From positions 1 to 38,232 of the IMG/VR virus record IMGVR_UViG_3300030376_005856: DNA of 38,232 nucleotides, one strand, 5' to 3'. The translations under genes and the position numbers were made by a program. Within the stretch, counting starts at the first letter, position 1. Every line of letters begins with the position of its first letter. Under the pieces are notes generated by a model that made no database searches, was not told the DNA's origin, and saw only the letters and a program-made list of their open reading frames with translations. This document shows positions 1,688 through 9,798 of the stretch, piece after piece. Origin of the DNA: a virus. Lineage: Duplodnaviria; Caudoviricetes.

Positions 1688-1713
1688 AAATGCGAATGAG
1701 AATCATTCTCATG
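1688..1713. promoter_or_regulatory. Fur-box-like site 3
   Basis: AAATGCGAATGAGAATCATTCTCATG: 8-1-8 dyad plus an extra hexamer. Confidence 0.55.
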
Positions 1714-1767
1714 ATGGTGTATTACCACACCAGCACACCACCACACCGACACAGTCGCAGGCGCGCA

Positions 1768-1842
1768 GCGCCGAAGTGCGAAAGTGAAGTGCAAAAGTGA
1801 AGGTGCTCTGCGCCGAAGTGCAAAAGTGAAGTGGAAAAGTGA
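1768..1842. repeat. two 33-bp direct repeats, each containing two GAAGTGCAAAAGT-type 13-mers
   Basis: GCGCCGAAGTGCGAAAGTGAAGTGCAAAAGTGA (1768-1800) and GCGCCGAAGTGCAAAAGTGAAGTGGAAAAGTGA (1810-1842). Confidence 0.9.
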
Positions 1843-1864
1843 TGTCTGCCGCGAAGCGGCGCCG

Positions 1865-1893
1865 ATTATACCACAAATCGCTGAGAAAGTCAA
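1865..1893 (-). promoter_or_regulatory. strong sigma70 promoter firing into the repeats
   Basis: minus strand TTGACT-17-TATAAT with TGn extension. Confidence 0.8.
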
Positions 1894-1905
1894 GAAAAAT
1901 TTACA

Positions 1906-1933
1906 CAAAAAAGGGAAGTTTTTTAAACTTCCC
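1906..1933 (-). terminator. Rho-independent terminator of the minus-strand A2-like gene
   Basis: GGGAAGTTT/AAACTTCCC stem with a T-tract on the minus strand. Confidence 0.75.
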
Positions 1934-1942
1934 TAGTCTGTT

Positions 1943-2230
1943 CTAGGATACTGCGTCAAGCAGTGTCGCTAGGTCTTTTGCATTTGCATTGACTAAGCTG
2001 TGTGCTTGTATGCCTAATGCTTTCTCGATGTCCTTGACCATTTGTGATTTGAGGACTTTAGCTTGAGCAGGTGCTCTCACTTCTTTGATGTACTCAACTT
2101 TCATGTTGATCGCTTTGCTGATAACTGATCTTAAAGTTACGCCAAATTCTGATGCTAATTTTTCTGCTACTGCTTTATCGATAGGGGCAGCGTCCCTGAT
2201 TTTTTGCTCTTGTATGCTACTGTATGCCAT
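1943..2230 (-). CDS. T5 A2-like HTH DNA-binding protein
   Basis: start MAYSS with GGAGA SD; LASEFGVTLRSVISK...K...SLVNANAKDL pattern shared with T5 A2 and two paralogues here. Confidence 0.7.
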   Translation of the reverse strand: MAYSSIQEQKIRDAAPIDKAVAEKLASEFGVTLRSVISKAINMKVEYIKEVRAPAQAKVLKSQMVKDIEKALGIQAHSLVNANAKDLATLLDAVS

Positions 2231-2278
2231 TGTCGGTTCTCCGTTCTGATGCGGGACTATTCCCGAATCGATAAAAGA

Positions 2279-2307
2279 ATTATAGGGGCAATCGGAAAAA
2301 ATGTCAA
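2279..2307 (-). promoter_or_regulatory. consensus sigma70 promoter for the A2-like gene
   Basis: minus strand TTGACA-17-TATAAT. Confidence 0.85.
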
Positions 2308-2419
2308 GGATTTTTTGCACAAAAATAGAAAATAATTTCGTTTAAGGCGTCGCACCTGAGAAAATTACAATAATTGGCACAGAGGGCTTTGCAAAGCCAT
2401 TTGCGGGGAGGTGCGTCCC

Positions 2420-2452
2420 GCGCCAAAGTGCAAAAACGAAGTGCAAAACTGA
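2420..2452. repeat. third copy of the 33-bp repeat
   Basis: GCGCCAAAGTGCAAAAACGAAGTGCAAAACTGA. Confidence 0.85.
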
Positions 2453-2474
2453 TGCCGTGCCCACATAAGTGCGG

Positions 2475-2503
2475 ATTATACCGCCAAAACCGCGCTAAGT
2501 CAA
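2475..2503 (-). promoter_or_regulatory. strong sigma70 promoter firing into repeat copy 3
   Basis: minus strand TTGACT-17-TATAAT. Confidence 0.8.
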
Positions 2504-2644
2504 GATAAATTTACTTAATCGCACTTAATTTCGTATATTTCTGCGTAGCAGATCGATTACGCGTGCCGCCCCTCGGAGGTCGTTTGCGTGAGTAGTCCGA
2601 CTAAAAGTTTTTGAAAGTATTTTGTGCAATGGAGTAGATTTTAT

Positions 2645-3386: not shown

Positions 3387-3415
3387 TTGACTTTTTAGGT
3401 AATTTCAATCATAAT
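3387..3415 (+). promoter_or_regulatory. sigma70 early promoter
   Basis: TTGACT-17-CATAAT with A-rich UP element. Confidence 0.75.
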
Positions 3416-3467: not shown

Positions 3468-3776
3468 GTGGCAGACACAAGTAATTATACAGTAGAACAA
3501 GTAGAACAGATGGTTAGCAGATATACAGCTGACCCAACAAGAGCGACAGTAGATGCTCTTGCAGAAGAGTTCGGCAAAAGCGTGAGAAGTGTGATTGCAA
3601 AACTAAGTAGAGAAGGGGTGTATATAGCCCAGCAGAGACAAACTAAAGCAGGTAAGCCTGTAGTCAGAAAGTCAGACTTAGTAGCAATGTTAGAGACAAA
3701 GTTTGAGGTAGAGCTTCCAACTTTAGTCAAAGCTTCCAAAGCAGACTTAGAACTCTTATTAGAAGCAATCCAGTAG
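3468..3776 (+). CDS. T5 A2-like HTH DNA-binding protein (alternative in-frame ATG at 3423)
   Basis: GTG start with AAGGAG SD; NYT.EQ...LAEEFGKSVRSVIAKLSREGVY. Confidence 0.75.
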   Translation: MADTSNYTVEQVEQMVSRYTADPTRATVDALAEEFGKSVRSVIAKLSREGVYIAQQRQTKAGKPVVRKSDLVAMLETKFEVELPTLVKASKADLELLLEAIQ

Positions 3777-4370
3777 TAAATCTCTAGTTTTAGATTAGAG
3801 TAGTAAATCTAATTGTTTCAGATTCCCGAGACTTCGGTTAATGAAGGGGACTCTAAGGTGATAATAGAGTATAAATTAAGTATCATAGAACAAGCATTGC
3901 AAGTTCGAAACCAACTGCGACCTGCTAACACTCAGTTGTAAAATTAACTCGGCAGGGGGTAATTGAAGCGTAGATTACGACCCGAACAATCTCGTAGCAT
4001 CTCTTAGCGGTAGAGGCTTAGAAAATCCGCTTAGTGACCATTAGAGTGGTTATCGGAAGAGCGTAACGAACCGATCAAAAAATACAACGCATCACGGCAA
4101 GTAAGTGCGAAAGCATCTGAACGAGAGGCAAGTCCTCCCCCGTACTCCTCGAGCCTTAGGAGCGAGTATAAATATTGAGCATAGGAAAGGTGTCAATGCA
4201 AGGCACGACTGGAGAACCACCCTACCAGAATAAAAGAAGGGGGAAAGGACACTCCAAGAGTGTTGACAAGAGGTAAGGAACAGACTGTTATGGCGTTCCA
4301 CATCGAAATTGCGTAGAAGAGGGGGCAGTTCGAAAAGTTTAATCAATTTGGCGTAAGCCAACAAAAGAGG
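3777..4370 (+). ncRNA. candidate large structured non-coding RNA (~600 nt)
   Basis: no credible ORF; many hairpins with GNRA/UUCG loops and long-range helices. Confidence 0.6.
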
Positions 4371-4378
4371 AGTGCAAA

Positions 4379-4597
4379 ATGTCAGTATTATTTGAAAAAA
4401 GAACGAAGTACCTAATGAGAGGTACAGCATATGGTTCATCTAATCAAAGAAAGTACGGAATCAAGTTTAGAAGTATGGCAATGGTGTCAACAGAAGAACT
4501 ATTCAAAGCTTTGAATGAGGACAGAACCAAGCCTAAAATGAAGGCAAAAATCAGAAATGAGATAGTAAAAAGAGGCATCAGAATAGTAAGAAAATGA
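4379..4597 (+). CDS. small, highly basic hypothetical protein
   Basis: GAGGAG SD; K/R-rich. Confidence 0.7.
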   Translation: MSVLFEKRTKYLMRGTAYGSSNQRKYGIKFRSMAMVSTEELFKALNEDRTKPKMKAKIRNEIVKRGIRIVRK

Positions 4598-4890: not shown

Positions 4891-5511
4891 ATGACAAAGT
4901 TGGAAATGCAACAGATTATGCTCAATGAAGTAGTTGAGAATGATTTTGGTCGTGTCGCTGTTATTTTGGAAGGGAGAGACACAGCAGGTAAGTCAGGAAC
5001 AATTCGTGAGTTGACTCACTATTTACCTACAAACAAATACTCTGTGTCTCTCAGCAATAAACCAAGTGCATGGGCTATGAAACATTGGCTCAAGTCGTGG
5101 AAAAAGAAGTTGCCCAGTGATAATCAAATCGTATTCTTTGACAGAAGTTGGTATTCAAGAGCTATGGTTCAGAAGTTGAACGGATGGTGCTCAGATAAAC
5201 AATACCAAGAGTTTATGGACAAAGTAAATGAGTGGGAAAACAAACAGAAAAATGTAACTTTTATCAAGCTATGGCTTTCTATCTCGGAAGAGGAACAAAG
5301 CCACAGGATAGCTAACAGGAAAGTATGCCCTCTGAAAAAGTGGAAGTTCTCCCCTAATGATGCAAAGGCATTATCGCAATACGATCAGATGACTATTCTC
5401 AAAGAACGAGTACTAACTCATTGTGGAGATTGGCATACTATAGATTACAATAACAAGGAAGCTGGGCGACTATCTTTAATCACTAAAGTAGTAGACTTAT
5501 TAAGGAGATAG
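4891..5511 (+). CDS. ppk2: polyphosphate kinase 2 (single-domain PPK2)
   Basis: Walker A EGRDTAGKSG, FDRSWYSR, and lid region KKWKFSPND. Confidence 0.92.
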   Translation: MTKLEMQQIMLNEVVENDFGRVAVILEGRDTAGKSGTIRELTHYLPTNKYSVSLSNKPSAWAMKHWLKSWKKKLPSDNQIVFFDRSWYSRAMVQKLNGWCSDKQYQEFMDKVNEWENKQKNVTFIKLWLSISEEEQSHRIANRKVCPLKKWKFSPNDAKALSQYDQMTILKERVLTHCGDWHTIDYNNKEAGRLSLITKVVDLLRR

Positions 5512-6367: not shown

Positions 6368-6574
6368 ATGTCAGGAACTAAGAGAATGTTCGAAATGACA
6401 GAGCGTATAAAGGAATTAGAGTACTCTGGGTACTACGAGAAAGAGATCGTAGAAATACTCGGAGATGAGTTTAATTTAGCAAATTATTTAGCAGAGGCTA
6501 TTGTTGAGTCTTATTTCGACAATAAAGTTGCTAAAAATTTCAGTTGGGATGGAGACACAAATTATGGCAGCTAA
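6368..6574 (+). CDS. hypothetical protein
   Basis: AGGAGG SD. Confidence 0.7.
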   Translation: MSGTKRMFEMTERIKELEYSGYYEKEIVEILGDEFNLANYLAEAIVESYFDNKVAKNFSWDGDTNYGS

Positions 6575-6893
6575 CTACACAGAAGAACAAGTAGAGGTTA
6601 TGGTTGCATGGTATACTGCTGAACCTACAAGAGAAACAGTTGAGATTATAGCGAAGGAAATGAACAAGAGTACAAAGTCTGTAATCGGAAAACTCTCAAG
6701 AGAAGGTGTGTACCAGAAAGCTGAGTACCTTTCCAAAACAGGACAAAGACCTGTAACTAAAAAACAAATGGTGAACCAAATTGCTCAAAACTTGGTTGGA
6801 GATAGTACAAGACTGATGGGTTTAGAAAAAGCCCCCAAGGCAGACTTGAAGTATCTTTTAGACCTAGTGAGTGAGGAGGAAGACTTTGAGTAA
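6564..6893 (+). CDS. T5 A2-like HTH DNA-binding protein
   Basis: start MAANYTEEQ with GGAG SD; KSTKSVIGKLSREGVY; clear paralogue of 3468-3776. Confidence 0.75.
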   Translation: MAANYTEEQVEVMVAWYTAEPTRETVEIIAKEMNKSTKSVIGKLSREGVYQKAEYLSKTGQRPVTKKQMVNQIAQNLVGDSTRLMGLEKAPKADLKYLLDLVSEEEDFE

Positions 6894-8203: not shown

Positions 8204-8422
8204 TCATCGTAGCCATCGTGGTTCAGGCTGAAGTCCAGCCTTTCTTTGCTTTTGTTTACAGCGAATGGTTCCAGCTGCTTTCTTCTTACGAAGTTTATCA
8301 GACTTCTTCGTGTAGTATTGACGTTCACGAACTTCTTGCATCTTTCCTGTCGCATCCACTTTTCGTTTCCAGCGACGCAAGGCTTGGTCAAAACGACCTT
8401 TATCTACACGAACAGAAGTCAA
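8204..8422 (-). CDS. rpsU: 30S ribosomal protein bS21
   Basis: V...FDQALRRWKRK....G...EVRERQYY.K.S..R.K matches the bS21 signature; GAGG SD. Confidence 0.88.
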   Translation of the reverse strand: MTSVRVDKGRFDQALRRWKRKVDATGKMQEVRERQYYTKKSDKLRKKKAAGTIRCKQKQRKAGLQPEPRWLR

Positions 8423-9190: not shown

Positions 9191-9375
9191 ATAAGAATGA
9201 AAAGTTCAGTTTATAACTGAGCTGTTCGAGTACTACGTCAGTAGGGGGCGGGATAGAAAGTATACTCACTTCTTTGCAATGAAGATGAAAATTAGTCAGT
9301 ATACGGGATTTTCATTAACCGAGATGCCGAAAGGGTCTCACAGAGTTGTCCGAAAGGAGACTAAGGAGAAAAATT

Positions 9376-9798
9376 ATGGTAGTTAGAACATTACCTACAA
9401 TACACGACCTTAACAGGTCATGGATTGGAGCAGATCGTTTTTTCGAAAGGTTCGCTTCAATGCCTACATACGAAGATAATTCGTATCCACGTTTCAATGT
9501 AACAAAAGACGGAGGAGACTATCAAATAGAGATAGCACTTGCGGGTTACAAGAAAGAGAATATAACTATCGAAAAGATAGATGGTAAGCTTGAGATTCGT
9601 GGAGAAAAGAATCTGAAAGATGTGGCAGACGAGTCATATCTGCATAGAGGAATAACAAGAAAAGCCTTCAAAAGAGCTTTTACTATATCAGATGATGTAG
9701 TAGTTGATAAAGCTGAGTTTGTAGATGGCATACTAACTGTTGACCTTCATGTAGAGATACCAGAAGAAAAAAGACCAAAAATAATAGATATCGTTTAA
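9376..9798 (+). CDS. hsp20: small heat-shock protein (Hsp20/IbpA family)
   Basis: YPRFNV, IEIALAG, YLHRGI..RAF, A.FVDGIL, P..I.I C-terminal motif; AAGGAG SD. Confidence 0.95.
   Translation: MVVRTLPTIHDLNRSWIGADRFFERFASMPTYEDNSYPRFNVTKDGGDYQIEIALAGYKKENITIEKIDGKLEIRGEKNLKDVADESYLHRGITRKAFKRAFTISDDVVVDKAEFVDGILTVDLHVEIPEEKRPKIIDIV

What the first reader, a model, noticed from the sequence alone, without database searches (positions are those of the whole stretch)
3777..4370. ~600-nt ORF-free, densely structured RNA candidate inside an early operon
Seen: a gap of about 600 nt in an otherwise gene-packed genome, tiled with helices. Examples are TTAGAGT(3795)/ACTCTAA(3850) enclosing a GAC-TTCG-GTT loop, CCTGC/GCAGG (~3921-3956), AGCGG/CCGCT, ATCGG/CCGAT, GTGC-GAAA-GCAT (4105-4116), a long-range GTCC-T-CCCCC (4132-4141)/GGGGG-AAA-GGAC (4239-4250) helix closing a three-hairpin domain, and TTGGC-GTAA-GCCAA (4348-4361). 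GNRA/UUCG loops read on the + strand, giving the orientation. Established: phages carry large ornate ncRNAs (GOLLD, ROOL) of similar size. Inference: this is a member of such a class or a new one. It lies between an A2-like gene and a very basic 72-aa protein that could be its binding partner. I recognised no tRNA, tmRNA, RNase P or group I/II intron core.
Basis: partly seen in the sequence, partly recalled or inferred. Interest (0 to 1): 0.8.

Follow-up and report, generated by a model that had tools for sequence, protein, structure and literature searches.

The report
Shuffled pseudoknot RNA of marine phages
This gene-free stretch of an uncultured marine T5-like phage is a chain of knotted RNA folds, found in ocean RNA libraries and built round one conserved core that no catalogue searched lists; related phages gain, lose and reorder its other units, so it likely serves as a changeable set of decoys for host proteins.

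Summary
The gap is a real structured RNA, but a chain of about nine pseudoknot and hairpin modules, not one GOLLD/ROOL-like fold. Nested folding energy is ordinary (z -1.1); the signal is in pseudoknots. A 40-nt core (3956-3995) occurs once, on the + strand, behind the A2-like gene in 65 of 80 related loci. Across 51 distinct sequences it keeps 90.6% of pair cells, with two-sided changes at 7 of 11 pairs. A sequence-free pseudoknot abuts it in 47 of 59 flanks (13 expected). Accessory modules come, go and change order among near-identical phages. RNA contigs from 8 runs (7 studies) lie on the A2 gene plus this RNA, five ending at 4312-4328; contigs give no strand, level or true end. No Rfam family, GOLLD, ROOL, tmRNA, ribozyme or T5 stable RNA matches. 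The basic 72-aa gene is a conserved neighbour (75 of 80 loci), but distant members sit without the RNA. Function is untested; a stable multivalent decoy for host RNA-binding proteins is my best reading (about 0.4).

The parts
3387..3415 (+). sigma-70-type promoter (TTGACT-17-CATAAT), likely start of the A2+RNA transcript
   Evidence: kept in L002-L005, L184-L192; consensus match only
3471..3776 (+). A2/D5-like DNA-binding gene (GTG start behind GGAG; listed ORF from ATG 3423); co-transcribed with the RNA in this clade
   Evidence: phrog_1725 E 7.8e-5; only weak likeness to T5 A2 itself, 24% over 72 columns, E 0.043; RNA contigs run from the gene into the gap
3772..3812 (+). Module A: two copies of AGUAGUAAAUCU (3772-3783, 3799-3810), second inside hairpin 3790-3796/3806-3812
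   Evidence: the 12-mer also occurs twice in L061, L062, L095, L119
3825..3848 (+). hairpin CCC/GGG with GAC-UUCG-GUU tip
   Evidence: G-U to G-C change at 3839 in RNA contigs and L002, L005, L184
3850..3886 (+). Module A3: H-type pseudoknot, S1 ACUCU/AGAGU, S2 GUGAUA/UAUCAU, A-rich loop 3
   Evidence: U3859C together with A3885G in 5 of 8 RNA runs and in L002, L005, L184 (may be one inherited event); different paired arms in L001
3912..3956 (+). Core part B0: H-type pseudoknot conserved in shape only, S1 CAACUG/CAGUUG, S2 CCUGC/GCAGG
   Evidence: 47 of 59 distinct upstream flanks hold such a knot ending within 8 nt of B1, 13.4 expected from shuffles
3956..3995 (+). Core part B1: sequence-conserved pseudoknot (3957-3960/3980-3983; 3968-3970/3993-3995; bulged U; 3972-3976/3988-3992; unpaired AUUGA)
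   Evidence: alignment of 51 distinct sequences, pair counts, model hits in 65 of 80 loci
3996..4031 (+). Core part B2: hairpin AGC..CUC/GAG..GCU whose loop AGCGG pairs with CCGCU (pseudoknot in this clade, plain hairpin in others)
   Evidence: arms change together in L001, L005, L006, L191, L192, L200, L206, L207
4034..4090 (+). hairpin 4034-4041/4046-4053 and module B3: H-type pseudoknot S1 AUCGG/CCGAU, S2 GCGU/ACGC
   Evidence: homologues with changed arms in L101, L105, L189, L191, L192, L197; replaced by another element in L002, L005
4097..4122 (+). hairpin with AGUA/GAA internal loop (loop-E-like, motif name recalled) and a variable GNRA-capped tip
   Evidence: AGUA and GAA kept while the tip differs in L002, L005, L193, L194
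4143..4207 (+). Module C: double pseudoknot around a central GAGCRUAGG strand
   Evidence: 13 sequences, 94.1% of cells paired; two-sided changes only in the second hairpin (4 pairs); the two knot helices vary on one side only or not at all
4209..4243 (+). Module C3: H-type pseudoknot S1 CUGG/CCAG, S2 CCCU/AGGG
4248..4264 (+). closing stem (7 bp) of module M2; the M2 body is missing in the window and present at this tip in L005
4271..4333 (+). Module D: hairpin GGAAC/GUUCC, then terminal helix UCGAA-A-UUGC/GCAG-UUCGA with conserved G-rich loop; likely 3' end of the stable RNA
   Evidence: D core in 18 of 74 units, always behind B1 (15 of 15); RNA contigs of 5 runs stop at 4312-4328
4348..4375 (+). 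clade-specific hairpin and ribosome-binding site: leader of the next gene, probably outside the RNA
4379..4597 (+). 72-aa basic protein (pI 10.9) of an unnamed phage family; conserved neighbour, partnership untested

Best explanation
The gap encodes a roughly 560-nt chain of pseudoknot and hairpin modules around a conserved B0-B1-B2 core, whose accessory modules differ in content and order among close relatives, and it likely acts early in infection as a stable, multivalent decoy that binds and titrates host RNA-binding proteins. Shown: non-coding, + strand, covarying core and modules, exchange of modules, presence in ocean RNA libraries joined to the A2-like gene. Inferred: transcription from the promoter at 3387-3415 (most relatives give the RNA its own promoter and terminator); a 3' end set by nuclease trimming back to the D helix at about 4333; stability from the packed knots; each module's invariant unpaired bases forming a binding surface; module turnover driven by differences between hosts, as in anti-defence gene islands. 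The targets are unknown; RNA-regulated abortive-infection nucleases (the pseudo-ToxI precedent) and translation factors are the first candidates.
For: Core covariation: 90.6% of 551 cells paired, 7 of 11 pairs and 85 cells with two-sided changes, 0 of 500 shuffles reach it, slid controls 27-45%. Core once per locus in 65 of 80 A2 loci (most of the model's own sequences come from these loci) and once in a complete 105-kb relative. 74 trimmed non-coding units of 300-1312 nt, most between a promoter and a T-run. In 17 arrays of the window's clade B1 is in 17, C in 12, D in 12, B3 in 6, M2 in 5, A3 in 4 (three are cut contigs); C precedes B1 in 9 and follows it in 3. L001 encodes an identical 72-aa protein but a different module set. 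Small hairpin modules are grafted into the variable stem of M2. RNA contigs of 8 runs from 7 studies cover 3510-4330, single contigs spanning 3535-4312 and 3615-4328. Precedent for a phage pseudoknot RNA that inhibits a host defence nuclease: PMC3475682 (passages); type III antitoxins are H-type pseudoknots (PMC5086642, passages).
Against: No target, host or binding was identified; the host is unknown (searches gave no names). No host-encoded look-alike of B1 was found: of 15 exact-pattern matches in 185,579 species genomes the only true one is a phage contig with its own A2 gene, and 1 weak match in a coding region among 151 Pseudomonadota-level genomes. Unlike pseudo-ToxI there are no tandem repeats. 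Module order is mostly kept (swapped in only 16 of 152 cross-clade pairs; B1 before M2 in 18 of 19, B1 before D in 15 of 15), which also fits one folded particle with expansion segments. A universal core is not what pure host-specific decoys predict. The RNA data are contigs from runs chosen for holding this stretch, with no DNA run laid as control, so they do not give strand, level or ends.
Confidence: 0.4

Rival explanations
1. One folded RNA particle or RNP, like the GOLLD/ROOL cages: the B0-B1-B2 core (with M2 and D junctions) makes the fold or the inter-copy contacts, the other modules are expansion segments, and the basic 72-aa or A2-like protein may coat it.
For: Universal single-copy core; mostly collinear modules and nested insertions; GNRA, UUCG and AGUA/GAA motifs; GOLLD has a conserved plus a variable region and ROOL many pseudoknots (PMC12286853 passages); basic gene next to the core in 64 of 65 loci.
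Against: Blocks C and B swap order among close relatives; M2 and D are dispensable; all supported helices are local (under 50 nt span except the D and M2 closing stems); no GOLLD/ROOL match; distant members of the basic family occur without the RNA nearby.
Confidence: 0.25
2. B1 (or M2, C, D) is a new small ribozyme or processing element that cuts the transcript into small RNAs.
For: Compact 40-70 nt knots with invariant unpaired bases, the features used to pick ribozyme candidates (PMC10085705 section 17); C begins like a pistol ribozyme (hairpin, loop knot, AUAAA linker; recalled).
Against: No ribozyme model match; no CUGAnGA block in the gap and no excess in 74 units (12 against 13.5); RNA contigs cross B1 in 6 of 8 runs.
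Confidence: 0.13
3. A cis-acting element: a stabilising 3' trailer for the A2 mRNA or an antitermination RNA for the early operon.
For: In this clade it is joined to the A2 message with no promoter or terminator of its own.
Against: In most relatives it lies between its own promoter and terminator, with no gene inside; in L003, L004, L187 a new promoter follows D.
Confidence: 0.1
4. Small-molecule sponge: modules are aptamers for nucleotide signals or metabolites.
For: H-type knots with conserved loop 1 resemble riboswitch pockets in layout (recalled); early expression.
Against: No riboswitch match apart from a sub-threshold preQ1 hit in L080 (E 3.3); no expression platform.
Confidence: 0.08
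5. A DNA-level element (origin, injection stop or packaging site).
For: Lies near a repeat-rich region at about 1700-2500 and beside a DNA-binding gene.
Against: G-U 34 against A-C 1, strand-specific pseudoknots, promoter/terminator frame, RNA contigs.
Confidence: 0.02

Closest known systems
GOLLD (RF02032) and ROOL (RF03087) large ornate phage RNAs
   Same: Large phage non-coding RNA of unknown function, pseudoknot-rich, seen in RNA data; similar size (PMC12286853 passages).
   Different: No model match; no tRNA island; conserved part is a central 120-nt core; modules are exchanged and reordered rather than forming one fixed secondary structure.
Type III antitoxins (ToxI, CptI, TenpI, antiQ) and pseudo-ToxI of phage phiTE
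   Same: Arrays of short H-type pseudoknots with A-rich loops; phiTE uses such RNA as a decoy against host defence.
   Different: Here every unit differs; no tandem repeats, no terminator-toxin gene behind it, no ToxI model match.
Stable RNAs of phage T5 (RNAI, III, IV, 1, 2, 2H, 3, X)
   Same: Same broad phage lineage (DNA polymerase 43% identical to Vibrio and Aeromonas T5-like phages); annotated as stable RNAs of unknown function, RNAX 719 nt.
   Different: No homology to B1 or any module; T5's lie in a tRNA cluster, these lie behind the A2-like gene in genomes with 0-1 tRNA.
Pistol and other small self-cleaving ribozymes
   Same: Size and knotted layout; first half of module C (recalled likeness).
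   Different: No Rfam match, catalytic motifs absent.

Membership tests
GOLLD | match to the RF02032 covariance model | tested here: not met
   0 of 4 genomes at E<=1, control rang below cut-off in 1 of 14
GOLLD | conserved 3' domain with variable 5' region | tested here: not met
   conserved core is central, at 74-679 nt into the units; the 3' module D is in 18 of 74 units only
GOLLD / ROOL | often next to tRNA islands | tested here: not met
   no tRNA in the window; 1 tRNA in 5 related genomes, none in the complete one; one tRNA beside the unit in L117
ROOL | match to the RF03087 covariance model | tested here: not met
   no hit in cmscan at E<=10; one search also empty, but its control rang nowhere
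GOLLD / ROOL | RNA-only homo-oligomeric cage | not testable with these tools
   needs cryo-EM or SEC-MALS
Type III antitoxin / pseudo-ToxI | H-type pseudoknot units of a few dozen nucleotides | tested here: met
Type III antitoxin / pseudo-ToxI | tandem array of near-identical repeats | tested here: not met
   only a 12-mer twice and an 11-mer twice in the gap
Type III antitoxin / pseudo-ToxI | terminator followed by a toxin gene | tested here: inconclusive
   no terminator found after D; next gene is 72 aa with no family; PF13958 absent from 4 genomes but the control rang nowhere
Type III antitoxin / pseudo-ToxI | cut into monomers by, and inhibits, a cognate RNase | not testable with these tools
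   host unknown
Known self-cleaving ribozymes | model match or catalytic core motifs | tested here: not met
Known self-cleaving ribozymes | site-specific cleavage | not testable with these tools
   contigs cross B1 in 6 of 8 runs but cannot show partial cutting
tmRNA | tRNA-like domain with CCA and tag frame | tested here: not met
   the same scan did find a permuted tmRNA in L016
T5 stable RNAs | sequence or structure homology | tested here: not met
   (T5 bases 1-50000 only)

The most novel reading that the evidence does not exclude
Marine T5-like phages carry an RNA counterpart of an anti-defence island: one early transcript on which dozens of interchangeable RNA domains, each binding a different host defence or translation factor, are assembled by recombination around a new conserved pseudoknot class (B1) that anchors or activates the whole.
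Probability: 0.25. Interest if true: 0.9.

Novelty: new variant of a known kind. Interest (0 to 1): 0.7.

Why it matters
Large phage RNAs (GOLLD, ROOL, T5 RNAX, phage K lncRNAs) have no known job. This family is widespread (414 A2-like loci in IMG/VR, core in 65 of the 80 examined), appears in ocean RNA libraries, and comes as natural mix-and-match variants of 40-110 nt units that can each be synthesised and assayed. That makes the question of what such RNAs bind directly testable, and offers several new covarying RNA motifs (B1, M2, C, D) as candidate aptamers or ribozymes.

Tried and rejected
Folding energy as evidence: z about -1.1 on both strands. blastn of the gap and of a 1-kb relative against 50,697 cultured phages: nothing, and nine 46-nt chance hits; A2-like protein: no tblastn match. 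Pattern scan for module C: 3 true of 26 loci. Rfam on 27 related loci: only tRNA, permuted tmRNA and sub-threshold hits. My first idea that the 72-aa gene was confined to one clade was wrong. Its fold: good model (pLDDT 85.8, beta hairpin plus two helices) but no Foldseek match at E<=0.001, best VIA Z 3.8, best PDB sequence hit archaeal S15 at E 0.55, no Pfam/PHROG family; this is absence of a match, not proof of a new fold. ORF-free gaps beside its distant relatives: three of them viewed and all were missed genes or gene-bearing. A cyclic contig 4007-4324 in run X1 was not seen in 7 other runs, one from the same study; treated as a library or assembly artefact. Contig ends at 4288 (X3, X5) match the graph junction with shared module D, and X5 has a contig 4259-4398 crossing the proposed end, so the 3' end is a weak hint. 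Low or missing cover of flanking genes is not used as evidence of level. T5 A1 not found in 4 genomes, no positive control, so pre-early status is unproven. Host assignment failed. The H-type pseudoknot filter was written after seeing the sequences; over 48 clade representatives it gave 48 against 21.3 shuffled and 14 reverse-strand, but only 1.35 per kb against 1.0 per kb in a coding control. Literature searches listed no paper on this RNA. Motif strings were absent from supplements 3-6 of PMC10690425, but its alignment archives and PDFs could not be read and may hold these motifs.

Full report
Setting. The window is a 37%-complete fragment of an uncultured T5-like phage: D5/A2-like DNA-binding genes, split NAD ligase, T5-type replication block, Hsp20, PPK2 and bS21; its polymerase is 43% identical to those of Vibrio and Aeromonas T5-like phages. 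RNA runs holding the stretch are labelled marine, seawater or aquatic.

Observation. The gap 3777-4378 has no gene, tRNA, tmRNA or Rfam match. The structure shows up as pseudoknots: a filter for H-type knots with an A-rich third loop finds 6 in the gap, mean 1.5 in 40 shuffles (none reaching 6) and 0 on the other strand (filter written after seeing the data).

Homologues. The downstream protein gave 6 viral and 36 metagenome loci; an A2 alignment gave 414 viral loci, of which the best 80 were kept. Behind A2 nearly all hold a long non-coding stretch, usually with its own promoter and T-run terminator; 74 trimmed, non-redundant units of 300-1312 nt fall into 48 similarity groups. L002 and L005 match the window over the whole gap (85% and 78%); L001, L003, L004 share only parts; L006 has two parts in swapped order.

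Core. One 40-nt element, B1 (3956-3995), is in 50 of 74 units and 30 of 48 groups by profile and, by covariance model, once and on the + strand in 65 of 80 A2 loci (the model was built largely from these loci), with variant forms in L097, L101, L105 and no hit at E<0.001 in 11 more distant A2 loci. In 51 distinct sequences 90.6% of 551 cells pair; 7 of 11 pairs and 85 cells change on both sides; the knot pair 3-30 is G-C 24, C-G 18, A-U 8, G-U 1 with no mismatch; slid controls pair 27-45%. The shuffle control ignores kinship, the sequences were picked by a pattern that fixes three central pairs, and one pattern match with a non-pairing 3' arm (second hit in L062) was left out of the alignment. 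Pair 19-39 is unpaired in 22 of 51. G-U cells outnumber A-C 34 to 1. Upstream, 47 of 59 distinct flanks hold a knot of free sequence abutting B1 (13.4 expected); downstream a hairpin starting AG and ending CU follows, knotted in this clade. An exact-pattern scan found 34 viral loci, 30 with A2 inside 1.2 kb, and 15 matches in species genomes, of which only one, a phage contig with A2, has the fold.

Modules. The window reads A, A3, B0-B1-B2, B3, loop-E-like hairpin, C, C3, an empty M2 stem, D (see parts). Among 17 arrays of its clade the accessory modules are patchy and C lies before B1 in 9 and after it in 3. Module C pairs in 94.1% of cells in 13 sequences, but two-sided changes are confined to one hairpin, so its two knots rest on conservation only. 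M2, absent here, is highly conserved in 25 distinct relatives and carries other small modules in its variable stem. Across groups order is mostly kept: 16 of 152 pairs are swapped.

Expression. 20 runs from 13 studies were listed, 19 on record as RNA; I laid 8 from 7 studies, all as contigs. All eight have contigs within 3510-4330; X2 spans 3535-4312 in one piece with 3 differences and X6 3615-4328; five runs stop at 4312-4328 with no loose end, next to the D helix that closes at 4333. The runs were chosen for holding this stretch, no DNA run was laid, and one X5 contig crosses the proposed end, so this shows presence in RNA libraries and continuity with the A2 gene, and only hints at the end. 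Strain differences include paired changes 3859/3885 (5 runs) and 4011/4025 (3 runs).

Neighbouring protein. The 72-aa gene has relatives in 75 of 80 A2 loci and 64 of 65 core-bearing loci, 436-2310 nt behind A2; median pI 10.2. It is sometimes cut off from the RNA by a terminator, promoter and other genes (L006, L198, L199). The wider family (199 clusters) has no named relative or fold match. In 80 loci of distant members there is no B1, module or A2 within 3 kb, and in two of the three viewed it sits before genes that read by eye as primase and polymerase. Partnership is possible but unsupported beyond synteny.

Mechanism. Shown: a + strand modular RNA with a fixed core and exchanged accessory units. 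Inferred: early synthesis, stabilisation by knots and the D helix, and binding of host factors by conserved unpaired bases. Rapid turnover of compact units among near-identical phages is what host-interaction islands do, and phage phiTE shows that pseudoknot RNA can neutralise a defence nuclease (PMC3475682, passages seen; PMC5086642, passages seen). I put the decoy reading at 0.4, a GOLLD/ROOL-like particle at 0.25 (PMC12286853, passages seen), a new ribozyme at 0.13.

Comparison and novelty. It works in the niche of large phage RNAs of unknown function (also phage K lncRNAs, PMC9241854, passages seen; T5 stable RNAs, record annotation) but fails membership of GOLLD, ROOL, type III antitoxins, known ribozymes, tmRNA and the T5 RNAs. 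Nine literature searches listed no description. PMC10690425 (listing and supplements 3-6 searched; alignment archives unreadable) could contain some motifs. PMC10085705 (abstract, first part of the results, section 17 read) concerns other sequences. Notes from this scan report similar modular arrays in other phages; I could not check them and take them as leads only, but they suggest the architecture recurs. Verdict: a real, uncatalogued modular RNA family, new variant of a known kind, interest 0.7.

Noticed in passing
L063:1671-1770, L068, L070, L072, L091, L098, L115, L117 and others, just behind the A2-like gene: A tRNA-like element with acceptor-like stem, D-like loop and T arm but no anticodon arm or CCA, in 19 distinct versions; not in the window; weak likeness to T5 RNA2.
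   Followed up: partly
L016:2868-3177: Permuted two-piece tmRNA directly behind the A2-like gene in a distant relative.
   Followed up: no
L010, L011, L013, L014, L019, L021, non-coding units behind A2: More distant T5-like phages have their own promoter-terminator RNA units without B1, sharing an H-type pseudoknot with covarying stems and a conserved loop 3.
   Followed up: partly
L005:2810-2860 and 24 other loci (module M2): Highly conserved junction module with one compensatory pair in L115; good ribozyme or aptamer candidate; deleted to its closing stem in the window.
   Followed up: partly
window 4007-4324: Cyclic contig in run X1 only; not reproduced in 7 other runs.
   Followed up: yes
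window 1700-2520: Short direct repeats and palindromes in a gene-poor region, kept in relatives; may be an injection-stop-like or terminal-repeat signal.
   Followed up: no
window 4891-5511, 8204-8422 (-), 9346-9798: Phage-borne PPK2, ribosomal protein bS21 and Hsp20. OLE RNA has been proposed to sequester bS21 (PMC12286853 passage), a lead for this RNA.
   Followed up: no
window 6501-6893: Second A2/D5-like paralogue 3 kb downstream.
   Followed up: no
L176: Contig in a Flavobacteriaceae MAG that is a piece of this phage group (A2 gene plus array); probably mis-binned.
   Followed up: partly
L222-L301: Unnamed family of 60-90 aa basic phage proteins (199 clusters), in some phages placed before replication genes.
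   Followed up: partly
G003 (105 kb, complete): No tRNA gene and no detectable T5 A1 homologue, unlike T5.
   Followed up: no
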